Assembly (NCBI GenBank): GCA_951406725.2 | Contig: OX597815.1 | Span: 63,550,001-63,614,000, forward strand | Direction of reading: 5' to 3' | DNA length: 64,000 nucleotides | DNA from: Octopus vulgaris | Taxonomy: Eukaryota | The notes under the pieces: generated by a model | Databases searched by the model: none | What the model was told of the DNA's origin: nothing | What the model saw: the letters and a program-made list of their open reading frames with translations, nothing else | Position numbers and translations under genes: made by a program | Part shown: in pieces, positions 1,659 to 58,000 of the stretch | Numbering within the stretch: the stretch's first letter is position 1 | Layout of the letters: every line of letters begins with the position of its first letter

Positions 1659-1695
<37 letters not shown>

Positions 1696-2231
1696 AACAC
1701 GCGTGCGCAAACACACACATATATATTAAATTAAAATAGTCATCTATATAACATATTCAATATACACATACGCTTGATAGGCCAGCTACTGCATTATTCA
1801 TACTAATGTAATATCTCTTAAGGCCGTGTTATGTTAAAAACACTATTCCTATAAAAAGATGAAAATTAGCCCCACCTGCGGCAAGTTGAAGGCCAGGTAC
1901 ATTTTAGCCTTTTGGGGTTTCCTCAATGACGTGTAATCGCAGCCATCTTTAACGAGAAATTTTCGCTTCCGATTTGGGAAACAGTGAATAAAATTTTCAC
2001 TCAGTTGTGGCCATATTCAGCCTGTAAATGATGGAGTTTGTTTTCGTGGCAGACGAAAACGAACGACATCATTCACAATCACCAAGAATGCACTTTCACA
2101 CACATCTAAGTGGAAAATATTCTCTAGGAACTGTCTCCACAGCAAAAGTTTTTATTACATACGAATATACTTGAACGTGTAACATATCAAAAGTATTTTT
2201 TTTCTATTCAACACTGCTTCGTGTGATATTA

Positions 2232-2392
2232 GGTATAGCTGTGTGGTAAGATGCTTGCTTCCTAACCCCAGGCTTCCGGGTTCAGTCCCACAGCGTGGCA
2301 TCTTGGGCAAGTGACTCCTACGACTGCATCGGGCCAAATATCGCCTTGTGAGTGGATTTTGAAGATAGAAACTGAAAGGCGTCCGTCGTATA
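2232..2392 (+). mobile_element. SINE family A head
   Basis: gctgtgtggtaaga...ccgggttcagtccca...ttgggcaagtg...ccttgtgagtggattt...aactgaaag, ending in (TA)n. Confidence 0.85.
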
Positions 2393-2686
2393 TATAAATA
2401 TATGTATATGTCTATGTGTGTATCTTTATATATAAATAAATAATGCGGGTTTTTTTTCAATTGCATGAACTAAAAGTCAGAGGGGGACGGGACAAACAAC
2501 TTGCATCAATTTGGAATAAAAGCAGGTAGTGATTTTACTATGTGTATATATATATATATATATGAATGTAGATATATTTATGTATAAAAATATATATATG
2601 TGTGTGTATGTATATATATATATGTATATATATGCACATATATATATGTACATATATATACATATATATATGTGTACATACATACA

Positions 2687-2742
<56 letters not shown>

Positions 2743-2765
2743 GAGGTCACAATACGTGTATTAAA

Positions 2766-2818
2766 GCGCTACTAATAGTTTCATAAGTTGAGAGAATTCA
2801 AACACATTGTTCAGGCGC
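2766..2818 (-). ncRNA. Minimal type I hammerhead ribozyme, core mutated (G8>C)
   Basis: Minus strand: gcgc CUGAACA augug-uuuga...ucaa-cuuau GAAA cuauuag UA gcgc; helix I gcgc/gcgc, helix III acua/uagu. Confidence 0.6.
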
Positions 2819-2865
2819 AGACCACATATGGAATACATTTTTGTTGAATTTTCTCTCGCGGATCA

Positions 2866-2950
<85 letters not shown>

Positions 2951-2982
2951 GTGTGTGTGTGTGTATAGGTATGGCTTGTGGT

Positions 2983-3122
2983 AGGCTCAGACATGGCTGT
3001 GTGGTAAGAAGCTTACTTCACAACCACACGCTTCCGGGTTCAATCTCACTACGTGGCACCTTGGGCAAGTGTCCAAAGCTTTGTGCGTGGATTTGGTAAA
3101 CGGAAACTTAAAGAAGCTCATC
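2983..3122 (+). mobile_element. SINE family A head (internal deletion)
   Basis: ggctgtgtggtaagaagcttac...gggttcaatctcact...gcaccttgggcaagtgt. Confidence 0.8.
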
Positions 3123-3291
3123 TTATGTGTGTGTGTGTGTGAGTGTGTGGGCGTATGTGTGTGTATGTGTGTGTGTTAGTCATCGAAGGAGGATCGGGTC
3201 ATAACTATTGCAAGAATTCAGAGTTTAGTGAGACCACTGTCGCTGAAAATAGTTACAGGTTAATGCTTGCGAAATAAATAAATAAATTAAT

Positions 3292-3385
<94 letters not shown>

Positions 3386-4087
3386 GTGAACTGGAAAGGA
3401 ATCGAAGGGCTGAAATCAAAATGTTTGCGATTTTTCAGAACTCCTCTAACGGTATTCACAGACTAGATGTCCCCTATATTTATCTCTATATAATATCTTT
3501 TCCTGTAATGCATTGTAATATGTTACTATAGACACTAAAAGGTTTTTTCAGCTGAGAAAGGAAAATATTTCAAACGTAAAATTACATTTATCTGAATGAA
3601 AGATATGCCGACTTTTAGGCATTGTCTCACAAAAATTTCAAATTGTTAATTAACTTCGGAGATTATTTTGTGGATATGCAAAAGTATAGGTGATTAAACA
3701 AAAAAAGGGGAAGCAAAGGCCTGGGAATTAAGGGTAAAATTCCTTGTACGATTATGTTGGTGGTATTTAATAATATTCTAAATTATATTTGAAAACATAT
3801 CTGCTACGAGCGTGAGTCTTGTTGCTAAGTAATACATTGACTGCTTACTGAGAGAGCGTTCCAGCTTTGACCATTCCTGCTTTGCTTTTTTCTTCTTTTC
3901 ATTAAGATTACAATTTTGAGCTCTTATTGTCTGTAACCTTTTAAATGCGGATATCTTTGCATGCGCAAAAGTGTCGGCCACTTTTATTTTACATTTTGAA
4001 AATTCTGCCTTAAGCCTGGGAGCAAGATGAGCTCTAATGAGGTACAGAAACACAATATATATATACGTATATATATGTATATATGTA

Positions 4088-4119
4088 TGTCTTCATCTTT
4101 TGATTTCTGTAAATTTGAA

Positions 4120-4155
<36 letters not shown>

Positions 4156-4187
4156 TTCAAATTTACAGAAATCAAAAGATGAAGACA
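4088..4187. repeat. Perfect 34-bp inverted duplication centred on (TA)n
   Basis: tgtcttcatcttttgatttctgtaaatttgaacc-(AT)n-ggttcaaatttacagaaatcaaaagatgaagaca. Confidence 0.9.
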
Positions 4188-4289
4188 GGTGAGTGAACAG
4201 CAAGCAGGTGAATTAGTTTGACACTCGGGAAGAATGTTTGTGTGTGTGTGTGTATAAAAGGTTGAAAAGGAACACATGAGTTGATATGC

Positions 4290-4902
4290 ATAAGGAAAAT
4301 AGGACAAGGTAGAAAATGCTAAAATAATTTTATCATGAAGAACATTTTAGTACCGGTTTCAGTCTTCGCGATTTTTTCAACTTAGAGTAAAGTATGAAAA
4401 ACAATTAAAATGTGGAAAAATTAAATTAAATGTTTTTTTAAATATTTCCATGAAAATTTTCCTTTTTTCTGTCAATCTGTCTCAGTTTTTTACTCTTGTG
4501 AAGGCTTGGTAGCAGGTCGTAGGTAGTAGCAGTCCTAAAAGAATATTTGATATGAGTTCTTAGTTTTGGTTGTTTAAGCAGCAGTAGTAACCGAGGAAGG
4601 AGGCGAAGAAGAAAAAGAAGAAGAGGGAGTGGAAAAAGAAGAGATTCTCTCTCTCTCTCTCTTCTTCTTCTTCTTCTTCTTCTTCTTCTTCTTCTTCTTC
4701 TTCTTCTTCTTCTTCTTCTTCTTCTTCTTCTTCTTCTTCTTCTTCTTCTCCTAAAAAGAATTTCATTAAATTTTTTCCACAATATAATTGTTTTTCATGC
4801 ATTACGCTAAATTGAAAAAGTCGCAAAGTCTGAAACCGGTACTAAAATGTTCTTCATTATAAAATTATTTTAGCATTTTCTACCTTGTTTTTGTTTTCCT
4901 TA
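4290..4902. mobile_element. Fold-back element (about 140-bp diverged inverted arms), each arm carrying a U3-A8 hammerhead motif
   Basis: Arms about 4290-4435 and 4760-4902. Motif ttgaaaa-agtc-gcaa-agtct-gaaa-ccgg-ta at 4808-4845 (+), with its reverse complement at 4347-4384; (TTC)n in the spacer. Confidence 0.7.
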
Positions 4903-5473
4903 TATATATACAAGGTGAAGTGCCTTTTTGTATTTTCACAAGATCTATTTGAGGTGAAACAAAAAAAAAAAAAAGAATAGCGTCACAAAGCGTGATATCA
5001 TATTAACTCTCGCAAACAGAAAGAACGAATCAGAAACCACATATTATTTATTGATGGTCAAATTTATGCTTGTTAGTTTTGCCTTCAAATTTTCCGCTTT
5101 TTTAGCGACCACCCCATATATATGTGTGTGTGTGTAAATTATATGGAATAGCATGTATGCTCTTTTCACTCTTCGAAAAAAGAAAACATTTCTCCAAAGT
5201 CCCAGTACAGTTTTGAAGACATTTACAAACTATGTAGATTTCACAGCTCTTTCAGGAAAATATGGACTCCCAAGTCATTGCAATATCTAGTCCTGTATTT
5301 TGAGGGCCGGGAGGGAAGATTTGGGGCACTATGTAATGGCGCCCTGTTCTGTTGTACACTAAACGATATGTATATATATATATATGTAAACATACAGATA
5401 CAGTCATACACACAAACACGTACATACATACACACACACACATAAATGCATATATATACATTCACACACATAG

Positions 5474-6388: not shown

Positions 6389-7135
6389 TACTCTCTCTCA
6401 CTTTTTGTAAATGCATATCGCAAACGCTGAGTGTGTACGCGTGCATGAATATGTGTGTGTGTATTGGGTGGGTGTGGGTGTATGACTGTGTGTAAGAAAT
6501 TTCGTTAGAGCGACAGAATCGTAAGACCTTCAGAAAGCATCGGCAGTAAGCTAAGAAAAATCTTTACAACTATGCACCAAATGAAAAAAACAAAAACTTA
6601 GTTTATCGATATATCATAAATTGCCACAGATAATGTCCAAGTCTGTCCTGACCAGATGGCCTATTCGTTGTAAAAGGCATGGTCTAATATAGAACAAAAA
6701 GACAAAAATTGAAATAAAACCAATAAAGCCAATAGCGAAAATTGACCGGCAACGACGAGGCACACAGCTAGACTGTGTGTGCGTGTATGCGATTTAAATC
6801 ACCGAAAAGTTTTTTCAGCGATTTAAATAATAATTTTTACTGTTATTTCCAGCAAGTAGACATAACTTGTATGTCCTGTGGTTAATTTTAATCCTTCAGC
6901 TATTTATTGCTTTTTGGGCCTGCAATCGCCTATATTTTTGTTTCTGTTATTATCATTTTTCATTGTTATACTAGATAATAATAGATTCGATAATATCTTC
7001 GTAAATATTTTCGGTTGAATTATTTGCTCCGTATTGAAATTATTTTTACACTGGTGGCTGCCATGTTTTGGCGCAAAACGAATCAGTTGCAGCGCAGACT
7101 TCAACGTGATAGGTCGTGGTTTTCCATCGTGGTAA

Positions 7136-7252
7136 CGCGTGCTGAGGAGGGTTAGATAAACTTAGATATGTTTCGACCAAAGATTGGTCCAGGCCATGTC
7201 TAACTTAATAGCATGTTAGGCTATAATACCAGTCCAGAAACCGGTCCACGTG
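7136..7252 (+). ncRNA. Type I hammerhead ribozyme interrupted by a CR1 3' tail insertion in helix/loop II
   Basis: cgcgtg CTGAGGA gg[insert]...cagtcca GAAA ccgg TC cacgtg; helix I cgcgtg/cacgtg, helix III palindrome ACCGGT, GUC site at 7246. Confidence 0.75.
7152..7213 (-). mobile_element. 62-bp extreme 3' end of the CR1 LINE family
   Basis: Reverse complement tgctattaagttagacatggcctggaccaatctttggtcgaaacatatctaagtttatctaa is near-identical to 32479-32541; gttag at both junctions. Confidence 0.9.
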
Positions 7253-7546
7253 ATTCCAAATACTTGAATGTATGCTGATTGTCTTAGCACATTTCTGTAG
7301 TTAACATCATTTTTTCCCCCGGTGATATAAATAAGAGTTTTGGCTGTTATTTCCAGCAGCAAGACACATTAGTATGTCTGATTAATTTTAATCCTTCGGC
7401 TATCTAATGCTTTTTGGGCCTGCAATCGCCTATATTATTGATTCTGTTATTCTCATTTTTAATTGTTACACTAGATAATGATAGAATGATAGAGTCAATA
7501 ATATCTTCGGAAATATTTTCTCCTGGAGTATTTGCTCCGTATTGAA

Positions 7547-7597
<51 letters not shown>

Positions 7598-7603
<6 letters not shown>

Positions 7604-8401
7604 CAATGTTAAAAAATGGCCTTGATAGGCCATTCGACTCACTAGAAAGAGCAGCTAAACTTAAACCGCTAAATAGTTGTAATTCAGAAACCAAAGGAAA
7701 ATAAAAACATTTACCCTTATCATCTTTGGACTATGCATAGTTTCGACATACATATTGGCAAACCGATTTAATTAAATTAAATTAAATCTATTTGCCACTG
7801 GCCTGTCTCGTCACCAAAGAAGCCAGGGAAATATATATCCACGAGGCGATAGTATCGACGCCTCGAGAATATATATTCTAAATTTTCAAAATCTACCGTC
7901 ACCGCACCAACTTATCAGCAGCAAATATAAACTGCTGATTTAATTTCAGAATTAGCCAAAACATCATTAATTAATCAATATCAGGGTAGCAAAAAATTCA
8001 TGAGAAATTTTTCGCCACCAGCGGTCCAGTGAGAAAGAAAAAATAGTAAACAGACTATATAATATACATTCAACAATATTAAGGAATGGCCTTGATAGGG
8101 CATTCGACCCACTAGAAAGAGCAGCTAAACTCAAACCGCTAAACAGTTGTAATTCAGAAACCAAAGGAAAATAAAAATATTTACCCTTAAATGTTTTTAT
8201 TTTCCTTTGGTTTCTGAATTACAACTATTTAGCGGTTTGAGTTTAGCTGCTCTTTCTAGTGGGTCAAATGCCCTATTAAGGCCATTCCTTAATATTGTTG
8301 AATGTATATTATATAGTCTGTTGACTATTTTTTCTTTCTCACTGGACCGCTGGTGGCGAATGATTTCTCTTGAATTTTTTGCTACCCTGATATTGATTAA
8401 T
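7598..8401 (-). mobile_element. Penelope pLTR-like element: partial direct repeat + hammerhead + 430-bp fold-back
   Basis: 7598-7718 is directly repeated at 8068-8188; 7970-8183 and 8188-8401 are near-perfect inverted arms with a 4-nt loop; starts at (TA)n. Confidence 0.85.
7723..7820 (-). ncRNA. Type I hammerhead ribozyme with long helix II, C3>G
   Basis: Minus: ucuuug GUGACGA gaca...uggcaaa...uuugcca...uguc GAAA cuaugcauag UC caaaga; helix III is the 12-nt palindrome ACUAUGCAUAGU. Confidence 0.75.
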
Positions 8402-8561
8402 GATTGCAACTGATTCGTTTTGCGCCAAAACATGGCAGCCACCAGTGTAAAAATAATTTCAATACGGAGCAAATAATTCAAGCGAAAATATATATATTCA
8501 TATATATATATATATATATGAATAAAAAATGGAGTTAACGCAGGTGAAATCAAATATTTTT

Positions 8562-8647
8562 ACTTTCGACACATGTTTCGAAAATTCCACTGATACTATT
8601 CAAAAGAATAAATGGTATAAACAATGCAATCTTCTCCTCAGGAAAGT
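8562..8647 (-). ncRNA. Type I hammerhead ribozyme, fully consensus core
   Basis: Minus: acuuuc CUGAGGA gaagauugcauug...caguggaauuuuc GAAA caugug UC gaaagu; 6-bp helix I, G10.1-C11.1, GUC cleavage triplet. Confidence 0.85.
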
Positions 8648-8786
8648 GAAAAAAACGAAACTCGTCAATAAGACATTTTAGTTATATATATATATATATA
8701 TATATATAACTAATGTAGGATAATGCTCGGGACTTGGTGCTTGCTTTTTCCATGGTTATGAATAAGTATTTCACTTATATCTCGCT

Positions 8787-8847
8787 TTGCCGTTGAAGAG
8801 GGGAAAATTTCTTACGAATTAACCCCGAAATTGGACCAATACGGTAA
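8787..8847 (+). ncRNA. Type I hammerhead ribozyme copy 1 (C3>U)
   Basis: ttgccg TTGAAGA gggg...cccc GAAA ttggaccaa TA cggtaa. Confidence 0.75.
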
Positions 8848-9256
8848 TAACGAATTTTTTAGAGATTTCTATCGGTTTGTTTCGAGACGCATAAATTATA
8901 ATGGTTTATTGACAATTATTGTCTTTTTTCGGCATATTTGGCATTAGAATTTTTCTTTTGCCCTTATCTTGTAAATTATTTATAAATTTAACCTTTAAAG
9001 GTATTTTTTGATATGCTGGCCATTGATAAAATTTTTTTCCCGAAAAAAATTTTATCCTACATTAGTTATACATTGAATAGTGTTCACTTCCGGATTCTAT
9101 CACTCTGTGAAAGTTTCTAGTTCGAATCACACGTGTCTCGAGATGTGCTGAAGATTTTTCTATATTGGATATATTTGGGGTACTTAGTTCTGCTCGGGAC
9201 TTAGTGCTTGCTTTTTCCATGGGTATGAGTAAGTATTTCACTTATATCTCGCGTAT

Positions 9257-9316
9257 TTGCCGCTGAAGAGGGGAAATTTCTTACGAATTAACCTCGAAAT
9301 TGGACCAATACGGTAA
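9257..9316 (+). ncRNA. Type I hammerhead ribozyme copy 2, consensus core
   Basis: ttgccg CTGAAGA gggg...cctc GAAA ttggaccaa TA cggtaa; helix III near-palindrome ATTGGACCAAT, AUA site at 9310. Confidence 0.85.
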
Positions 9317-9463
9317 TAACGAATTTTTTAGAGATTTCTTTCGGTTTGTTTCGAGACACATAAATTATAATGGTTTATTGACAATTATTGTCTTTTTTTC
9401 GGCATATTTGGCATTAGAATTTTTCTTCTGCCCTTATCTTGTAAATTATATATATATATATAT

Positions 9464-9786
9464 AAAGACTCCGCCGGTTACGACGACGAGGGTCCCAGCT
9501 GATACGATCAATGGAACAGCTTGCTCGTGAAATTAACGTGCAAATGGCTGAGCATTCCACAGACACGTGTACCCTTAACGTAGTTCTCGGGGATAATCAG
9601 CGTGACACAGAGAGTGACAAGGCTGACCCTTTAAAATACAAGTACAACTCATTTTTGCCAGCTGAGTGGACTGGAGCAACGTGAAATAAAGTGTCTTGCT
9701 CAAGGACACAACGCGTCGCCGGGAATCGAACTCACAACCTTACGATCATGAGCCGAATGCCCTAACCACTAAGCCACGCGCCCTCA
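9464..9786 (-). mobile_element. tRNA-derived SINE, family D (Meta/MESC-like core)
   Basis: Minus: A box tggcttagtggttagg, B box gttcgattccc, then tgtgtccttgagcaagacacttt...ccagtccactcagctg; decayed copy at about 45400-45612. Confidence 0.85.
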
Positions 9787-9791
9787 CAATA

Positions 9792-9860
<69 letters not shown>

Positions 9861-9872
9861 AATGTATATATG

Positions 9873-9901
<29 letters not shown>

Positions 9902-9908
<7 letters not shown>

Positions 9909-10445
9909 TAGTTATCGCCATACTAATATGGTAGTCTATAAATATAAGACTAAAGCTGTCGCTGATTAGCTCCAAGAGGCCATCGCCTCTAGCTAGCTAT
10001 TTGACACACGAACCTGCGTCCATTACAAACCTTCGAACAGGGGAGGTCAGCCGCTTCACCTTGCTAGTCAGACATCTGCTGACATGTTTCAGGGTTGTTG
10101 CCCTTTATCAATGCAGCGTAGTCAGACCCGCATGGTGTCACTACTGACCGTCTGTTCGAAGATTTCATTTACCTAGTTACAGTGGAATACATCCAACTGA
10201 AACATGTCTGCAGATGTCTGACTAGCAAGGTGAAGCGGCTGACCTCCCCTGTTAGAAGGTTTGTAATGGAGGCAGGTTCGTGTGTCAAATAGCTAGCTAG
10301 AGGCGATGGCCTCTTGGAGCTAATCAGTGACAGCTTTAGTCTTATATTTATAGACTACCATATTAGTATGGCGATAACTATTAATATCCAGTAACGCTGC
10401 CGTAATCTCCTTTAGAGAGACTTAGTAATTTTAATATTTCCATTA
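9902..10445. mobile_element. Fold-back element with 190-bp inverted arms and hammerhead, in (TA)n
   Basis: Arms 9902-10092 and 10197-10387 are nearly perfect; 104-nt spacer; (TA)n on both sides. Confidence 0.9.
10076..10116 (-). ncRNA. Minimal type I hammerhead with compensatory U3-A8 core
   Basis: Minus: cugca UUGAUAA aggg-caacaa-cccu GAAA caug UC agcag; the opposite arm reads gaaacatgtc-tgcag, which restores full helix I. Confidence 0.8.
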
Positions 10446-10463
10446 TATATATATATATATATA

Positions 10464-10571
<108 letters not shown>

Positions 10572-10755
10572 TGTATATATATATTATATATTATGTATAT
10601 ATATATATGTGTATATGTATATATATTTATATTATGCATTTATATATATATATATACATGTATGTATGTATATATAATATATATTATGTATATATATATA
10701 TGTATATGTACTTATATATTACGCATATATCTATATCTATCTATCTATCTATCTA

Positions 10756-10787
<32 letters not shown>

Positions 10788-10788
<1 letters not shown>

Positions 10789-11175
10789 TAGCAGTATCGC
10801 CCGGCGTTGCTCAGGTTTGTAAGGGAAATAACTATAAAGCATTTTTAGAGAGTTATAGCCAAAAAATAGCAAAAAAATGGAAAAAAAATTATGGTAAATT
10901 TTTTTTTGAGAGTAAAAAAAGGTTGAGTTGCGTCCCCTAGACAGTCTGTGGTTTGTTTTTTTTGATTCTCGACCCCATGTCGAATTTATCGATTTTTTTC
11001 AGAACTGGGGTTAACTTTTCAAAATTTTCGCTGCGTTAGTTTTGAATTATGACATTGGGCTATGTGTGTGTCAAGTTTCATCAGAATCGGTTGAAAGCCG
11101 TGGTCAGGGTGAGGGTACGAGAAAACAGACACACAGAAACACGCACAGACAAACTGCCGTTTATATATAGAGAGA
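10788..11175 (-). mobile_element. Non-autonomous Helitron
   Basis: Minus strand starts TC (tctctctatatataaa) and ends cctgagcaacgccgggcgatactgCTAG with a GC hairpin just before CTAG; sits between A and T in a (TA)n tract. Confidence 0.8.
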
Positions 11176-27360: not shown

Positions 27361-27585
27361 TCTTTTACATGTTTCAGTCATTTGACTGCGGCCATGCTAG
27401 AGCACCACCTTTAGTCGAACAAATCGAAGCCAGGACTTATTCCTTGTGAGCCTAGTACTTATTCTGTCTGCCTCTTTTGCTGAACCGCTAAGTTACGGGG
27501 ACGTAAACACACCAGCATTGGTTGTCAAGCGATGGAATGGGGACAAGCACAAACACAGACACACACACACACATACATATATATG

Positions 27586-27636
<51 letters not shown>

Positions 27637-27910
27637 CAATATAAGGAATGGCCATATAGGACATTCGACTCACTAGAAAGAGCAGCCAAAACTCATACCG
27701 CTAAATTTTTGTAATTCTCTTTCTATTTCAGAATTACAACTATTTAGGGGTATGAGTTTTGGCTGCTCTTTCTAGTGAGTCGAATGTCCTATATGGCCAT
27801 TCCTTATATTGTTGAATGTATATTCTATAGTCTTTGACTATCTTTTCTTTCTCACTAGACCGCTGGTAGCGGAGAATTTTTTCTAGAATTTTTTGCTACC
27901 CTTATATTTA

Positions 27911-27971
<61 letters not shown>

Positions 27972-29388: not shown

Positions 29389-32300
29389 AACTCTTTTTTA
29401 CTGACATACCTGGAAAATATGAAGGCCGACCTAAGCCAGGAGATCCAGCGAGCCATCACCAACCATCTATGCAAATCACAAGGACCACTCACCCATTACC
29501 AACTTCCCTTACCTCGACATTCCTGTTAAATGTACGTGGCATCAACCCATCAATTATTGCCCAAAAATGGAAGATCCCATATATAGAGAGTTGGCTTGCC
29601 GAAATGGCACATTGCTTCCCTTTCTTTATCCTTACCGAGACTCACCTGAACAACACCCATATGGACGCAGAGGTGAAAATAAAAGATTTCACCATTGTTC
29701 GTGCAGATCGCACAGACCGAAATAAGGGAGGGACAGCCATCTTTATCCATGACTCCTTTTCACTTGATGCCAAGGACACATTTTCCAATGGCTACTGTGA
29801 ATCGGTATCAGTATACAACAAAGCCAAGGACATAACCATTGTTGGTCTTTACAGGCCTCCCCAGGCACCTCTAAAGTACTTTGAAGAGTGCCTTAGCAAA
29901 GTCAAGTCCTTCCTTCGGAAGTACCACTCCGGAAACATAATAGTGATGGGTGATTTTAACCTCCCTCATGTGAACTGGCCCACAAATACTCCGAAGTTAG
30001 GCAAGTGCTCTACATCAGATAGGGCAGCAGCAGAACTGCTCTTTAATCTGATGGATGAGTATTTCCTGACTCAGCTAGTGCTTGAACCAACGAGACAGAA
30101 TAAAACGATCTTGGATCTGGTACTGACCAATCACTCTAGCTACGTTCACAGCATTTCAGTCGAAAAAACTCTCCTCTCAGACCACGACATGGTACTCTGC
30201 AATCTTAATTCCCGACGTATAAAAACCAAACCAGCCAATCCCACTCCATGGCACCCATTTGACAACATAAATTTCCACAAAGCGGACTGGGGAACAATCA
30301 GAAAGGATCTGTCTTCCATCGACTGGTCTTTTACTCTCAATTCCCCTCATATTGAGACCGCGTGGCAGCACTTTGAAACCATTGTCACTGACACATGCTC
30401 TAAACACGCTCCCAAGAAATCTACTAACACAAACAGAAACCGGCTCCCTAAAAAGAAAAAAACACTCATCAGGCGCATCAAAAGACTCAACAAAAAAATC
30501 AACCAATTAAAATATTCCCACACGCAACATCCACATTCAACAACAATGAAAAGACTAGAGCTGGAAAAACTTCATCTGCAGACTAACATGAAAACCTCCA
30601 TTGAAAATCAAAGAGCTGTGGAGGAACAATGGGTAATCAAAAACATCAAACAGAACCCAAAAGTGTTCTATTCTTATGCAAATAAGCATAGAACCACTGT
30701 CTCACCTATTGGGCCATTGATTGATGAAAACGGCATTCCCCAACACGATGCTAAAGAAATGGCAGAAATACTGCAGAAACAATATTGCTCTGTCTTCAGT
30801 GTTCCCACTGATATTGATGTGAGGGAAACGAACGAAGCTGACTCCCAACACAAAATCGCAGACATAACCTTCACTGCCACCGACATCGTAGCAGCAATAA
30901 ATGAGGTCAAACATTACTCCGCTGTAGGCCCTGATAGATTTCCCGCCAGTCTCCTGAAGGAATGTAGATATCAACTTGCAGTCCCTCTGACCAACCTCTG
31001 GAGAAACTCATTAGACGCAGGTTATATACCGAATAAGTTTCTATCCCAGTCGGTCATCCCGGTTTTCAAACAGGGAAACAGATCCCTCGCAGTCAACTAT
31101 CGCCCAATCTCACTCACCTCCCACATCATTAAAGTGTTTGAAAGAGTGTTAAGATCAAGGATAGCTGACTTCCTGGAGACCCACAAACTCCTAAATTCAA
31201 ATCAACATGGCTTTCGCTGTGGCAGGGACTGTCTAACACAGCTCTTACACCACATTGAAGATGTACTCAAAGCCTTGGGAACAGGTTCGAACTCTGACGT
31301 CATATACCTTGACTTCAGTAAAGCGTTCGACAGGGTAGACCATAACATCCTACTCTCAAAATTGGCAAATGTTGGAATCCGTGGAAAAGTTCTACACTGG
31401 ATTCAGTATTTCCTAGCGAATAGAACACAACATGTTGTAGTTGATGGAGTCCACTCAAACCCAGCAAAAGTCACCAGCGGTGTTCCCCAGGGAACTGTTT
31501 TGGGTCCGCTACTCTTCATAATTTATGTAAACGACCTTTCCAGTGTCGTACATCACTGCAAAGTGAAAATATTCGCTGATGACACTAAGCTCCAGCAAAT
31601 CGTCAATGAAGAAGCAGACCGAACTCAACTCCAGTCTGACCTATATGCTGTGAGTCAATGGGCAGACAGAAACAAAATGCAACTGAATGAGGGAAAATTT
31701 GAGCTGATGCATTTTGGAAGAAATTCCTCACTAAAACAACCATACTCTCTTCCTTCAGGGGAACCGCTCACAGCCTCTAACAATATCAGAGACCTGGGTG
31801 TCATTGTTGATGACGATCTCAGTTGGAGTGCACACATCAACAAGAAGGTCGATACAGCTCGTAGGATGAGTTCCTGGATCTTAAGAACTTTCCGGTCCAG
31901 AGAACAAGGTGTCATCATACCACTTTTTTCATCCTTTGTACGGCCACACCTTGAATACTGCTGCCCACTGTGGTCTCCTCACACAAGACAAAACATCTCC
32001 AGAATTGAGTCACCCCAGAGGGCTCTCACTAAACAAATTGAAGGCATGGCTGCTCTCGACTATTGGGATCGCCTTAAAGCCTTGAAACTTTACTCCCTCC
32101 AGCGTCGCCGTGAGCGGTACATCATTTGTACGATGTGGAAAATATACCGCCAACTTTGCCCAAACGACCTAAACATTAGCTTCAAGGTTCATCCGAGACT
32201 TGGACCACGGGCTATACGTCCCCTGCCAAATTCAAGATCACAACATACATGTACACTGCAACATAATTTCTTTTCCTCAACAGGCCCTGCCCTATTTAAC

Positions 32301-32540
32301 ATTGTCCCGAGGGAGATCAAAGAGGAAAAGGATCCCATCAACTTCAAACAGAGTCTGGATGGATTCCTTCAAAGAATACCAGACAAGCCACCCATAATTG
32401 GATACAACTCACCCAACAAGAACTCACTACTTGAACAAAACTTGACTTAAACAGGATTCGAATAATCCTATCAGGTGGTGCTATTAAGTTAGACATGGCC
32501 TGGACCAATCTCTGGTCGAAACATATCTAAGTTTTATCTA

Positions 32541-32545
<5 letters not shown>
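29389..32545 (+). mobile_element. 5'-truncated CR1-clade LINE with intact ORF2
   Basis: Probable ORF1 C-terminal remnant overlapping ORF2; short 3' UTR with gacca/tggtc stem-loop and (ATCTAAGTTT)2 tail; TA repeats at both ends. Confidence 0.9.
29469..32450 (+). CDS. LINE ORF2: apurinic-like endonuclease + reverse transcriptase (993 aa)
   Basis: APE motifs LNVRG, TETHL, YRPP, GDFN, LDLV, SDH; RT motifs YRPISLTS, QHGFR, DFSKAFD, GVPQGTVLGP, FADD; CR1-type C-terminus RPHLEY. Confidence 0.97.
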   Translation: MQITRTTHPLPTSLTSTFLLNVRGINPSIIAQKWKIPYIESWLAEMAHCFPFFILTETHLNNTHMDAEVKIKDFTIVRADRTDRNKGGTAIFIHDSFSLDAKDTFSNGYCESVSVYNKAKDITIVGLYRPPQAPLKYFEECLSKVKSFLRKYHSGNIIVMGDFNLPHVNWPTNTPKLGKCSTSDRAAAELLFNLMDEYFLTQLVLEPTRQNKTILDLVLTNHSSYVHSISVEKTLLSDHDMVLCNLNSRRIKTKPANPTPWHPFDNINFHKADWGTIRKDLSSIDWSFTLNSPHIETAWQHFETIVTDTCSKHAPKKSTNTNRNRLPKKKKTLIRRIKRLNKKINQLKYSHTQHPHSTTMKRLELEKLHLQTNMKTSIENQRAVEEQWVIKNIKQNPKVFYSYANKHRTTVSPIGPLIDENGIPQHDAKEMAEILQKQYCSVFSVPTDIDVRETNEADSQHKIADITFTATDIVAAINEVKHYSAVGPDRFPASLLKECRYQLAVPLTNLWRNSLDAGYIPNKFLSQSVIPVFKQGNRSLAVNYRPISLTSHIIKVFERVLRSRIADFLETHKLLNSNQHGFRCGRDCLTQLLHHIEDVLKALGTGSNSDVIYLDFSKAFDRVDHNILLSKLANVGIRGKVLHWIQYFLANRTQHVVVDGVHSNPAKVTSGVPQGTVLGPLLFIIYVNDLSSVVHHCKVKIFADDTKLQQIVNEEADRTQLQSDLYAVSQWADRNKMQLNEGKFELMHFGRNSSLKQPYSLPSGEPLTASNNIRDLGVIVDDDLSWSAHINKKVDTARRMSSWILRTFRSREQGVIIPLFSSFVRPHLEYCCPLWSPHTRQNISRIESPQRALTKQIEGMAALDYWDRLKALKLYSLQRRRERYIICTMWKIYRQLCPNDLNISFKVHPRLGPRAIRPLPNSRSQHTCTLQHNFFSSTGPALFNIVPREIKEEKDPINFKQSLDGFLQRIPDKPPIIGYNSPNKNSLLEQNLT

Positions 32546-35298: not shown

Positions 35299-36560
35299 TT
35301 CGCTTATTGGCCACAAGGGCTGACAGAAATTAATTAAAACATAAAGGGACAAAACACAGGACGAAAGTTACAAAGGGTTTTGTCCGTTTGCAAAACCCGT
35401 GTAAAAATTCCAGAGATAACAACGAAAATATAACAATTGAAATTCCCAATAGGGGGAGGCGCTTCGAAAGGTTACTCGTTGAAAAACCCATAAAAGCCAC
35501 GGAAGCCTGGTCAAAAGTGGGGTAGAGAGCCCCTTTCTCCTTTTATAATACTTTTTTATACTACATGTGTATCCTCAGAATTGGTCCATTTATACTGGCC
35601 ATTCTTGCGACATTTACCCACCTTTCAGTAAACTTGCTATCAGACAGCACTTCCCTCTCTATTCTCACCTTCCTTTTCAAGTGAAACTTGAAAAAGTTGA
35701 TGAGGCCTTGGCCAAAGAGGAAAGTGTCTGACCTTAGCCCTTTCAAACGGGTCCACCATACCACCTCTTTCGCTACAGCCACTAGACACAGGAAAACGGC
35801 CTTTCCCTCCTTGTTAAAGGAGGAAATCCTCACTATGGATTCAGCTGATAGCCGGATCCGTCCTATACGCGACAGTAGCTGTTCGACATAAACCCATAGT
35901 TCAGCAATACTCGGGCACTGGACGAGTGCGTGCAGGACGGTTTCGTCGTCTTGGGCGCACCTCGGGCAGGCCCGGCTGATGGCACTTCCGTACTGGTAGA
36001 GTTTATCTCGAACAGGCAGAGCCCCTCGGTAGCACTGCCAGGCGAGGGACTTTGGGAAATTGTCCATTGGCTCCGGCCCGAAAGTTCTTCCAAACAGACT
36101 GTTCAATTCATTATCGTCAACGCCTAGAGTTTCCCCGAGAACGTCGTCGCACTTTTCTTTCACTAACCCTCTATAGAACGCTAGAGTGGAACCAATACCG
36201 ATCGCATTGCCCGCTTGGTGGAGGGCGGAGAGAGCTTGACAGCACTCGAGGTGCCTAGCACCCTTTCTCGGTCTGCGTTTGATCCAGGTTTGCAGCTCTA
36301 TCAAAGAGACGAGCTGCAGAAAGTCGCATCTGACAAAAGACGACCACACATGTTCACCGTCTAGGAAACACTTGAGATGCCGTAGCCTGAGCGCATGCCT
36401 GCGCATCAGTAACCACGATATGCCAAAGCCTCCGTTCAGCGGCCTTTGACAGCAAATGGATCGCCTGACCAGTGGTACCTGACCCTTCCACAAAAAGTCA
36501 AAGGGCAAGCGCACCAGCTTGGCCAACTAGCGGTTGGGACAAGGGACGACGGTCAAGCGG
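35299..36560 (-). pseudogene. Tx1/L1-type LINE 3' remnant (post-RT region with CCHC zinc knuckle)
   Basis: ORF 35561-36526: FLWKG...GGFG, CPRC-x8-H-x4-C; in-frame stop upstream; T-rich 3' UTR; (TAA)n flanks. Confidence 0.85.
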
Positions 36561-37591
36561 TAATAATAACGATAATAATGATACAGAAATATTTGAATAG
36601 ATATTCTATGCACACATTACAAGCAATTTTCAGTTTTATCCAGAAGATGCGAAATGCTAACGGCCGTCATTTTGTTTTAAACTCAGCTCACTTAAATAAG
36701 TGCTTCGTTCTGTTTATCTTTGTCTCTGTTTCTAAACATCAGAAAAGTTTGAACATACGAGAGAATATACCAACATATAATTGAAGCGCTAGAGTGGAAA
36801 CGCTTATCTTCTTGTGAAACTGTTAGAGTTACAGTGTTTCTCAACTTCACTCAGAGCTGGGGTTCTCAACCATTTTTTTTCTTGTCTATGGACCCCTTGG
36901 GTTACTATTTTATTCCGATGGACCCCATAGTCATTCGATGTTTAAAAACTATTTTAATACAAACTTCTTTAAAATTCCTATTTTGTTTTTTACAGGCTGA
37001 CTTAATCTTTCATCCTTTCGGGGTCAATAAAATAAGTACCAGTTGAACAAACACTGCAGTCACTGTAACCGACTTACCCCTCCCCCGAAATTGCTAGTCT
37101 TGTTCTAGAATTTGAAACCAATATGTAGGGCTGGTTTGATTGCAGGCTCACATTTAAAATCATCTCATGATTTTCATAATAAATGCAGTAGCTGTTACCA
37201 TATACTAGGCTTTCAAACAGTTACTACCATGCTCTGACCTCGTGTCTCTAACTTCGTTTCATTTAATGCATCTAGTTTTGGATCAACTGTTTAAAAACAA
37301 AATGTGACTGGAATGAGTCCAGTCGTGTTGGATTAGATGTTCAGGTGAAAATCTTGGCTCTGAATGACAGATAAGACGCTTGCACGAGGACCAGAGGCCA
37401 TTTATTCACAAACAGGAGCTAGGTATTAACAATAACAACAACATAAAGGTAAATTCTGCACACATACACACATACATACACACTCAGGGTGGCGTGGGGA
37501 TAGAAAGGGAAGATAAGTCAGTAGCATTAAGTTGCCTCAGATATTGTTCAACCTCGGTGATTTTTGCAATATATTAATGGTTATGTGAAAC

Positions 37592-37952
37592 TTGGCGGCT
37601 AATAGGCACAGTCGGTAGAGCGTCTGATAGAATATCCGTGGTATTTATTACGACTCTGTCTTCTGAGTTAAAATCCCACTACCGACAAGTTTGCCTTTCG
37701 TCTTTTCAGGAATGAGCATTAAAAAGGAATCAGTCTAATGTGTTGCCAAACTGGCACGCTAACGAGAGACGGACGAAATGTCGCTAAGCATTTCGTCCGT
37801 CTTTACTTTCTGGATTCAAATGCCGCCGAAATCGACATTACCTTTCATCCTTTCGGGTCCAATAAAATAATTATCAGTTGAGCTCTGGGGTCGATGTAAT
37901 CGACTTAAGCCTCACCCCGAAATTGCAGGCCTTGTGCCAAAACCTGAAATCA
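37592..37952 (+). mobile_element. Two decayed SINE family C copies (further partial copy at 36995-37121)
   Basis: cctttcatcctttcggg...aataaaataa core. Confidence 0.7.
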
Positions 37953-38107
37953 TTAAACACAAATAAAAAGAAGACTGACATGTAATTTTGAACCTGTGGA
38001 AGGTACGCTAGATGCCGAAATATTGTTCAACGAATTTCACATGATATGGCACTCTTCTATTTTTTTGTGTTTAACTTCTGGATGAGTTACCTCGGTCCTA
38101 TATTGTC

Positions 38108-38154
<47 letters not shown>

Positions 38155-38156
<2 letters not shown>

Positions 38157-39895
38157 CCCAACTATTCGGGGAAAGCGATAGGCCACAATGAATTATGCAC
38201 CTACCTCGACGGCCTCCCGCAACACTCGGAAGAAGAGGTTAGAGATGAAAGGCCAATAGCAACAACTGAAACTCGAGAAATATTGAGTGACTGCACAAGG
38301 GTCAAATAGCTCGGTTTAGATGGTCTTCCCTATGAGTTTTATAGTCATATGCCAGAGCTGTTTGGTGATCTCTTGGTAAATGTCTATCACAACTGGCAGC
38401 AAAACGAGAAAATTCTCAGGTTTGTGAACTGAGGTGTGTTAATTTTGCAGAGAAAGGATGCCAGTACAGGGGTTATTATAGACATTTTTCGGCCCATAAC
38501 CTTACTAAATGTAGAGTTTAAAATTCGGGCCAAGGTATTTGCAAAGAGGTTGGTACTCGTGGTAGATGGTTTGGTCGGAGAAGCTCAAACGTGTGCGATC
38601 CCCAATAGATTCATCCACGACAACCTCCATCTCGTGTGTTGTATCATAGAGAGAATGGACAATAAATCTGGTATTAGTGAGGCTCTGATCAATTTTGAAC
38701 AGTCAAATGCTTTCGATAGGGTCGACCATTGCTATTTGGCAGAAGTCTTACAAGCAACAGGTTTCGGACACGATTTCAATGGCTGGATCGCAGCAATGCA
38801 CACTGGCGCTTGCTTAGAGGTAAAAATGCTCACCTCGCCTCTCTAATAACTTATCGCTTGATCATTATACCATGACCTAATCCGTATTTGGCCAAACTGA
38901 AGCGTTTACTTTTCCGCTTCCTATGGAAAGGATGTGTTCCACTGGTGAGGAGCTTCAAGTGTTGCCAAGCACTCTTCGGATGGCGGCTTTGGCATGCCAT
39001 GGTTGCTAATGTATGGACATGCGCTGCGCCTATGCCACTTACTGGTGGGCTGGAGTAGTCTTCATTTGTATGACACACCTTTCTGCAGCTCATCTCTTTG
39101 ACATAATTGCAACCCTGAGTCGAGAAAAGACCAAGACTAGGCGCCTGGCATCTAGAATGTCGTTAAACGCCCACTGCCCTCTACCAGTCAGAGAATACAG
39201 TCGGTGGAAGCTCCACAGTAGCAATATATAGAAATCGAGTGATGGGTAAGAGTGAGGGTGTTCTCAGCAAATTCTAGGAGTCTGAAGGGATGAACTGTCT
39301 ATTTCTTAGGACTTTCGGGTCCGGTAATACCATGGATAACTACCAGAATTCCCAGGCCTAGCACGGCTACCGAGGAGATCAGCCGAATTCTTCGTCAGAA
39401 TCGCCCCACCATTCACCTTTAGCAATGTAGAGCAAGCAGTGTTCCTTTGTCTAGTGGCTATGATAAAAGAGGCTGAGTGGTGAACGAGGCTGACGGGATC
39501 TAGGACACCTTCCTCTTTGTTCAAGCTCCCACCAAGTCTTCTTGGAAATAAAAGTGAGGTTGGAGAGGGCAATACTATCTGGAGAGGGAAATGCTAATTG
39601 TGAAAAGATGGGTGATTGTGGCAAAAAAGGTTAGAGTGAATGTATGTGTCAGTAGAAGGAAGAGCAAGAGAGACGGTTCGTGCTTTTGATGGTCAGGGTA
39701 ATCGGGAATCTGTATAGTACCTTGATTGGCTCCTGTTGGAGTTTCTTCTGTATCAAAAGGACTACATCATTCATATTTTCACATATTTTGTATATGCATA
39801 ATTTTATTGCATTTCACCTTTTCTTTCTCTTCATCCCACGCAATTGTTATCTGTCCTTGTGATATCTAAGATCCCGTGGTTAATAAAAGAAAAAA
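38155..39895 (+). pseudogene. Decayed, internally deleted Tx1/L1-type LINE (RT fragments to 3' UTR)
   Basis: GLDGLPYEFY, FRPITLLNVEFKI, IHDNL, AFDRVDH; the later part is homologous to 35299-36560; ends ...gtggttaataaaagaaa then (TTA)n. Confidence 0.85.
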
Positions 39896-57551: not shown

Positions 57552-58000
57552 AATGGCAGTCAAAGACCGTTTTTTCCATTTCTATAAGTGGAGATTCCAA
57601 AAACGAAGGCCCTTGCGGCTCACATACACAAAACCGGAGTGGCAAATATACGAATTCAGTCACTTACCGTTAATAGCGAACACGGTGTTTCTGGATCACA
57701 AACATAAAAAAAGCTTTATCAAATGCCACCAGCCCTCACTTCTGACCGCGACATCAGATAGTCGCTGGGTCAGAAGTGAGGGCTGGTGGCATTTGATAAA
57801 GCTAACGAATATAGCGCTGAAGAAGGAATTCAAACTCCCTTTTTTTATGTTTGTGATCCAGAAACACCGTGTTCGCTATTAACGGTAAGTGACTGAATTC
57901 GTATATTTGCCACTCCGGTTTTGTGTATGTGAGCCGCAAGGGCCTTCGTTTTTGGAATCTCCACTTATAGAAATGGAAAAAACGGTCTTTGACTGCCATT
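57552..58000. mobile_element. Perfect nested fold-back element containing a hammerhead
   Basis: 57552-57713 = reverse complement of 57839-58000; 57712-57747 = reverse complement of 57768-57803; starts at (TA)n. Confidence 0.92.
57811..57879 (+). ncRNA. Type I hammerhead ribozyme
   Basis: atagcg CTGAAGA agga..caaac...gtttg..tcca GAAA caccgtg TT cgctat; 6-bp helix I, helix III acac/gtgt, GUU site at 57873; A10.1/A11.1 mismatch. Confidence 0.8.

What the first reader, a model, noticed from the sequence alone, without database searches (positions are those of the whole stretch)
6840..10445. Ribozyme hotspot: six hammerheads from five families within 3.6 kb, nested
Seen: hammerheads at 7136, 7723, 8562, 8787, 9257 and 10076 on both strands, with the elements mostly separated by (TA)n. 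The 7598-8401 element lies between the direct-repeat part (6840-7548) and the inverted part (8405-8491) of another element. Inference: each insertion preserves or expands (TA)n, creating a self-perpetuating landing pad. Any transcript crossing this block could be cleaved on either strand.
Basis: partly seen in the sequence, partly recalled or inferred. Interest (0 to 1): 0.75.

Follow-up and report, generated by a model that had tools for sequence, protein, structure and literature searches.

The report
Penelope retroelement pile-up in TA repeat
Five unrelated families of Penelope-like jumping genes, each carrying a hammerhead self-cutting RNA motif, sit side by side here, likely because each landed separately in the same TA repeat; this is an extreme but expected case of known behaviour, and four of the six motifs are damaged.

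Summary
The six hammerhead motifs are real and belong to five dispersed repeat families. Families C and F are 3' ends of Hydra-type Penelope-like elements (PLEs), with RT and/or GIY-YIG coding sequence upstream in other copies. A, B and D are non-coding retrozyme-like units; B and D repeat every 470 nt. None of 145 other loci carries the composite, and the units differ 0.6-9.5% from their families, so they arrived separately. Insertions split (TA)n and usually leave TA on both sides; no expansion is needed to explain tract lengths. These elements cluster 2-3-fold; roughly 1-10 such piles are expected per genome. B is not nested in A: the 'inverted part' is a local 99%-identical copy of this A copy, unmatched at 132 other loci. 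The true nesting is a LINE tail inside A's hammerhead. Only two motifs keep core and stems, and both probably need a dimer; cleavage is untested. The scan has reported the same PLE/retrozyme system elsewhere in this genome. Known kind; low interest.

The parts
6791..6810 (-). Probable tiny inverted 5' arm of family A (tentative)
   Evidence: Reverse complement resembles 7310-7332; by eye only
6811..7548 (+). Family A: oldest unit, non-coding partial tandem (6820-7044 repeats at 7324-7553, 82%), ending at the family's long 3' end
   Evidence: 6-9.5% from family majority; left junction bridged by contigs of 4 of 4 runs, 3 organism labels
7136..7252 (+). Hammerhead A (CUGAGGA core, A.A at the base of stem II in the family, palindromic ACCGGU stem III, predicted site after 7246); stem II interrupted
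7156..7219 (-). 59-nt 3' tail of a LINE plus 5-nt GTTAG target duplication (7151-7155 / 7215-7219), inserted into stem II of hammerhead A; the only true nesting
   Evidence: absent from all 24 other A copies aligned; 0 differences from family majority; same tail ends the RT/endonuclease ORF at window 29391-32450
7549..7599 (.). (TA)n shared by the 3' ends of A and B
7600..8404 (-). Family B: complete two-armed insertion, body 8189->7600 (470-nt unit) plus inverted arm 8188->8404 ending at the long 3' end; hammerhead 7723-7820 with C3G
   Evidence: 2.5% from majority
8405..8491 (-). Local inverted copy of this locus's own A sequence (7005-7091), joined directly to B's long end
   Evidence: 1 mismatch in 87 to window A versus 94% best and 90% median to other A matches; no like case at 132 loci
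8520..8681 (-). Family C: 5'-truncated 3' end of an autonomous Hydra-type PLE; hammerhead 8562-8647 intact, predicted site at 8568
   Evidence: 0.6% from majority
8709..9450 (+). Family D: 15-nt inverted arm (8709-8723) plus partial tandem of a 470-nt unit; hammerheads 8787-8847 (C3U) and 9257-9316 (core intact, G.U in stem II)
   Evidence: 1.5% from majority
9466..9788 (-). tRNA-headed SINE between TA tracts, no hammerhead
   Evidence: weak tRNA match 9712-9781, 25.1 bits, below the gathering score; very high depth in runs; 5.6% from majority
9906..10443 (-). Family F: two-armed insertion, body 10195->9906 plus inverted arm 10197->10443; 360-nt unit derived from a Hydra-type PLE; hammerhead 10076-10117 with U3-A8 core and a stem I mismatch at 10080
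   Evidence: 1% from majority
10444..10787 (.). Long degenerate (TA)n/(TATG)n tract closing the block

Best explanation
The block holds five separate Penelope-like (PLE) repeat families plus a SINE, which likely inserted one after another into a single (TA)n microsatellite that each insertion split and left usable. [quoted passage not shown] A, B and D are non-coding retrozyme-like units that likely borrow such enzymes (inferred from identical insertion anatomy). Each element would be copied from RNA, primed at a nick in TA, often as two head-to-head 5'-truncated arms with one short and one long fixed 3' end facing outward. The hammerheads are passengers in the 3' repeat, probably acting as dimers in tandem element transcripts, and decay here after insertion. 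The 87-nt inverted A piece likely arose by a local template switch during or after B's insertion.
For: Each unit is its own dispersed family (first-look candidates 842, 2212, 1805, 2573, 2471; the A count is mixed with LINE tails). None of 145 other loci holds more than two of the five families. Divergence from family majority spans 0.6-9.5%. 3' ends fall at two fixed places and 5' ends scatter. Full-length C partner L280: 98.9% direct repeats 2824 nt apart, inverted arm, ORF with RW, DKT and YRDD motifs and GIY-YIG. F has a GIY-YIG ORF end with CxCx5C linker directly upstream in 2 of 29 loci. 19 of 24 random-genome hammerheads point at a TA tract within 450 nt versus 23% of random positions. 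Length-biased tract splitting fits. Hydra insertion into (TA)n, hammerheads and inverted arms are described in PMC8557442.
Against: No autonomous partner was found for A, B or D in 23, 27 and 26 non-redundant loci (output partly cut). Five in 3.6 kb is rarer than the mean rate predicts (0.5 expected genome-wide under Poisson), so clustering must be invoked. Pfam matches for RT and GIY-YIG are below curated cut-offs, and the C-family ORF lacks a recognisable CxCx5C linker. No empty-site allele was seen. Divergences rest on best-matching copies and are lower bounds.
Confidence: 0.85

Rival explanations
1. Self-reinforcing landing pad: each insertion actively lengthens or opens the TA tract, so occupied tracts attract further insertions well beyond their length.
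For: Other-family hammerheads are 69/Mb near family copies versus 24/Mb at random (p 3e-4), and 94 versus 43 elements/Mb by homology (p 7e-4). The far side of a flanking tract is occupied in 5/165 versus 16/1472 (odds ratio 2.8, p 0.052). Flanking tracts are longer than random tracts (median 33 vs 25 nt).
Against: Summed flanking tracts (median 71.5 nt, n 60) fit a length-biased split with 0-20 nt added equally well (p 0.13-0.54). Regional differences in TA density or selection could give the same 2-3-fold enrichment; this was not controlled.
Confidence: 0.25
2. The block acts as a two-strand RNA cleavage cassette (terminator or decay element) for host transcripts.
For: C (-) and D2 (+) keep the full core, one on each strand.
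Against: Four of six motifs are damaged, about as neutral decay would give (hand estimate counts). Stem III pairing probability is at most 0.12 for C, D1 and D2, and D2 helices I/II fall to 0.11/0.02. Single PLE motifs showed no cleavage and dimers little (PMC4209133). No host ORF of 120 aa or more was recognised in the window (short exons would be missed).
Confidence: 0.05
3. The block is one old composite copied as a unit, or an assembly artefact.
For: No listed contig bridges the internal junctions, so they rest on the assembly alone.
Against: Composite absent from 145 other loci. Units have different ages and each has its family's normal anatomy. The left junction is bridged in 4 of 4 runs.
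Confidence: 0.05
4. True nesting: B inserted inside a two-part A element whose inverted arm is 8405-8491.
For: The geometry as seen. A fold-back duplication of A that predates B cannot be excluded: 1/87 mismatches versus 8/214 between B's arms is not a significant difference.
Against: Normal inverted arms lie at the 5' side and end at a fixed 3' end (6890 or 7040 equivalents for A). This piece lies 3' of A, runs 7005-7091 and shares this copy's private variants.
Confidence: 0.15

Closest known systems
Hydra clade of C-terminal EN+ Penelope-like elements, e.g. Hydra-1_Obim (Craig et al. 2021, PMC8557442; passages and supplement rows seen)
   Same: Under 3 kb, RT then GIY-YIG, RW(K) and DKT motifs, CxxC and CxH around the endonuclease end, CxCx5C linker (family F), canonical hammerhead in the 3' repeat, (TA)n insertion, partial tandems with an inverted truncated arm. 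The C-family ORF resembles Hydra-1_Obim by eye.
   Different: C and F are different families (their hammerhead stems differ from the listed Hydra-1_oBim motif). The C ORF lacks a clear CxCx5C. End extensions here are about 55-155 nt, against 30-40 bp described for Naiads. The paper passages seen describe no multi-family pile-up.
Animal non-LTR retrozymes (Cervera and de la Pena 2020, PMC7229834, passages; Li, Clavereau and Pollet 2026, 10.64898/2026.07.22.740005, passages, supplements closed)
   Same: Short AT-rich non-coding tandem units with a type I hammerhead (B and D 470 nt, F 360 nt), proposed to be non-autonomous PLE derivatives. F shows that derivation directly.
   Different: Units are longer than the ~300-390 nt quoted and occur as 1.2-1.6-mer two-armed insertions in TA. 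Circular RNA was not tested.
Metazoan PLE hammerheads (Cervera and de la Pena 2014, PMC4209133; parts 1-2 of 4 read)
   Same: Type I, short palindromic stem III, U3-A8 core variant, opposite-strand pairs 100-700 bp apart, mostly truncated copies, predicted dimer requirement.
   Different: Stem III is small but present rather than absent. Family A and several other families in this genome have a non-canonical 10.1-11.1 pair.

Membership tests
Type I hammerhead ribozyme | CUGANGA / GAAA / UH core with three helices | tested here: met
   Met by family majorities of B, C, D and F (U3-A8) and, with an A.A pair at the base of stem II, A; in the window fully met only by C and D2
Type I hammerhead ribozyme | Match to Rfam hammerhead models | tested here: not met
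   No hit at gathering score or at E<=10
Type I hammerhead ribozyme | Self-cleavage | not testable with these tools
   Folding suggests an unstable monomer stem III and a stable self-duplex
Penelope-like element | PLE-type RT and GIY-YIG endonuclease in full copies | tested here: met
   C: L280/L281 RT (RVT_1 E 6e-5) and GIY-YIG (E 5e-4); F: GIY-YIG end only (E 0.002); all below Pfam cut-offs
Penelope-like element | Coding partner for families A, B, D | tested here: inconclusive
   None in 23, 27 and 26 loci
Penelope-like element | Partial tandems, inverted 5'-truncated arm, extension at one end | tested here: met
   All five families
Hydra clade | RWK and DKT motifs, C-terminal EN with CxxC and CxH, under 3 kb | tested here: met
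   Family C: RIRWL, SDKT, CLLC, CKH, 2824-nt period
Hydra clade | CxCx5C linker | tested here: inconclusive
   Present upstream of F (CSCRDKSKC), not recognisable in C
Hydra clade | Insertion into (TA)n | tested here: met
   97 of 109 young-family loci have perfect TA at one or both ends
Hydra clade | Placement in an RT tree | not tested
   Reference proteins seen only as paper text
Non-LTR retrozyme | Non-coding tandem unit with type I hammerhead | tested here: met
   B 470-472, D 469-474, F 359-362 nt periods; no PLE protein match in the units
Non-LTR retrozyme | Accumulation as circular RNA | not testable with these tools
   No RNA run was laid

The most novel reading that the evidence does not exclude
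PLE and retrozyme insertion is a positive-feedback process that multiplies its own TA targets and builds multi-family ribozyme piles, and its two-armed integration can switch template to nearby host DNA and write local inverted duplications (here 87 nt from 0.5 kb upstream). This block would then record seven or more successive events at one site and serve as a stepwise test of the unresolved PLE integration mechanism across related species.
Probability: 0.25. Interest if true: 0.5.

Novelty: new member of a known kind. Interest (0 to 1): 0.25.

Why it matters
As it stands, it is a tidy illustration of how (TA)n-targeting Penelope-like elements stack up in a genome with on the order of 100,000 hammerhead-bearing copies (43/Mb x 2.8 Gb). 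It gives a first rough measure of their clustering (2-3-fold) and shows family F as a direct deletion derivative of a coding PLE. It does not point to a new system or a host function. If the feedback and template-switch reading held, the locus would help test how PLE inverted arms are made, which PMC8557442 calls undefined.

Tried and rejected
Rfam gave no hammerhead hit; only chance microRNA-like hits on hairpins and TA. The first descriptor versions missed some motifs; one search is the one used, and it detects 119 of 186 family copies, only 1 of 28 for A. The 59-nt insert in A looked like half a hammerhead but is a LINE tail. PLE ORFs beside B and D copies (L081, L007, L021) belong to a neighbouring family with its own 3' end, not to B or D. 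PDB search with the C ORF: 0 hits. Sequencing runs: no RNA holder listed; contigs from 6 of 24 listed runs were laid; repeat copies swamp the signal and no listed contig bridges or skips the internal junctions, so presence/absence of B, C, D, F, the LINE tail and the inverted piece stays open. Search for comparable flank duplications: 0 of 132 loci, 2 trivial hits set aside. Selection against ribozyme function in the block: 4 of 5 young motifs hit, not clearly beyond chance (hand estimate about 0.07). Paper searches listed no paper on multi-family hammerhead piles in TA tracts; the library lacks most subscription papers.
Full report
Setting. The window is G000:C2:63550001-63614000 of a 2.8-Gb animal genome, dense in microsatellites. 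The repeats look octopus-like (inference; the SINE type is recalled, not looked up).

Observation. Their stems differ between families but pair. My descriptor gives 24 hits in 100 random 10-kb regions and 2 in the same regions shuffled; Rfam gives none. Against the majority of 28-46 copies per family, B has C3G, D1 has C3U, F (family core U3-A8, a variant described in PMC4209133) has a mismatch at the first stem I pair, and D2 has a G.U in stem II. A carries a 64-nt insertion in stem II: a 59-nt LINE tail with a GTTAG duplication, from the family whose RT/endonuclease ORF lies at window 29391-32450. Only C and D2 keep core and stems.

Independent families. Each unit has hundreds to thousands of first-look candidates (not copy numbers). 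One copy each of B, C, D and F and none of A fell in the random megabase. Of 145 other loci, none holds more than two of the five families. Differences from the family majority are A 6-9.5%, SINE 5.6%, B 2.5%, D 1.5%, F 1%, C 0.6%, LINE tail 0% (lower bounds for the hammerhead families and the tail, since best-matching copies were used). Contigs from 4 of 4 runs, under three organism labels, run from the unique left flank into A, so A is an old shared insertion. Internal junctions were not bridged by any listed contig.

What the families are. All show PLE anatomy: scattered 5' ends, two fixed 3' ends (short and long), partial tandems and head-to-head arms. B, D and F in the window are two-armed insertions; C is a lone truncated end. 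C belongs to a coding element: L280 has 98.9% direct repeats 2824 nt apart, an inverted arm and a frameshifted RT plus GIY-YIG ORF with RW, DKT, CxxC and CxH motifs. F has a GIY-YIG ORF end with a CxCx5C linker directly upstream in 2 of 29 loci, and otherwise repeats every 360 nt. These are the marks given for the Hydra clade, which inserts into (TA)n and carries hammerheads (PMC8557442). B and D repeat every 470 nt, and no coding partner was found for A, B or D; they fit non-LTR retrozymes (PMC7229834), proposed to be non-autonomous PLE derivatives (10.64898/2026.07.22.740005).

Landing pad. 19 of 24 random hammerheads point into a TA tract within 450 nt, against 23% of random positions. Of 132 non-redundant family loci (13 overlapping or segmental-duplicate or LINE-only loci set aside), 61 have perfect TA at both ends, 45 at one and 26 at none, 14 of these from the old family A. 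So insertion splits and keeps the target. Summed tract lengths (median 71.5 nt, n 60) fit insertion in proportion to tract length with nothing added (p 0.32) and do not fit equal use of all tracts; expansion is not needed, though 10-20 added nt fit too. Other-family elements are 2.2-2.9-fold denser near a copy than at random. Reuse of the same tract is borderline (5/165 vs 16/1472, p 0.052). TA tracts are abundant (736 in about 0.9 Mb), so targets are not limiting. None of 100 random regions has three elements in 3.6 kb; 6 of 132 family loci have three families and none has four. Five in 3.6 kb has Poisson P 6.5e-7, or 0.5 expected per genome; with the measured clustering a hand estimate gives about 10. 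From 7549 to about 11210 there is only repeat and TA sequence, consistent with one tract split repeatedly (inference).

Nesting. The piece at 8405-8491 matches the window's own A (7005-7091) at 86 of 87 nt, including private variants, against 94% at best and 90% median among 29 full-length matches. It is on the wrong side of A and does not end at either of A's fixed ends, and it replaces the TA normally found at B's long end. I infer a local template switch during or after B's insertion; an earlier fold-back cannot be excluded. No comparable duplication was found at 132 other loci, so it is a rare event, and it is unverified by reads.

Cleavage. Stem III of A, C, D and F does not fold alone but forms a self-duplex of -6 to -11 kcal/mol; in context its pairing probability is at most 0.12 for C, D1 and D2. 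Published single PLE motifs did not cleave and dimers cleaved weakly (PMC4209133). C is single here. In a D1-D2 dimer the intact D2 core would act on D1's site (after 8841), not 9310 (my inference from the strand-swapped fold). No host gene was recognised and no RNA data were laid. The 'two-strand cutter' reading is therefore unlikely and untested.

Literature seen: PMC8557442 (passages, supplement rows), PMC4209133 (parts 1-2 of 4), PMC7229834 (passages), PMC13282606 (parts 1-2 of 3; 100-kb TE hotspots in an octopus, no hammerheads or TA-level analysis in what I read), and the 2026 preprint (passages; supplements closed). Searches listed no paper on multi-family hammerhead piles. Earlier scan notes describe the same system on other DNA of this genome; they are not independent support.

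Verdict. Real, explained by known biology, at the extreme tail of a modest clustering. Interest 0.25.

Noticed in passing
window 29391-32541 (+): A 1019-aa open frame with AP endonuclease and RT (Pfam above cut-off): a young LINE, the source family of the tail inside hammerhead A; it ends in TA.
   Followed up: partly
window 27579-27915: A diverged B-like two-armed element (75-89% to B) in a TA tract.
   Followed up: no
window 57811-57879 (+): Another intact type I hammerhead of a sixth family, also seen in random region L235.
   Followed up: no
window 10788-11165: A further dispersed repeat between TA tracts, seen in many fetched loci; Helitron-like by recall only. It is likely another insertion into the same tract.
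   Followed up: no
L280 (G000:C4:81711000-81717500) 1664-5060: Near-intact full-length Hydra-type PLE (family C) with 99% identical repeats; L281 holds a 646-aa uninterrupted frame of the same family.
   Followed up: yes
L092 1663-1782: Internally deleted C derivative that joins the first 37 codons of the ORF to the 3' end: a retrozyme-like unit in the making.
   Followed up: partly
L282, L283, L285: A second Hydra-type family with CxCx5C linker whose 3' end has a hammerhead-like motif that my descriptor missed (CCGAAGA-type core by eye); found beside B and D copies in at least five loci.
   Followed up: no
   Followed up: no
random loci L183-L276 and family A: Several hammerhead families in this genome have a non-pairing 10.1-11.1 position (A.A, A.C, U.U) at the base of stem II.
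   Followed up: no
L043-L047 (C14, 73.5-74.7 Mb): Five near-identical loci around an A copy: a segmental duplication array.
   Followed up: no
window 35561-38846: Fragments of a second LINE with a zf-RVT domain (Tx1-like by recall).
   Followed up: no
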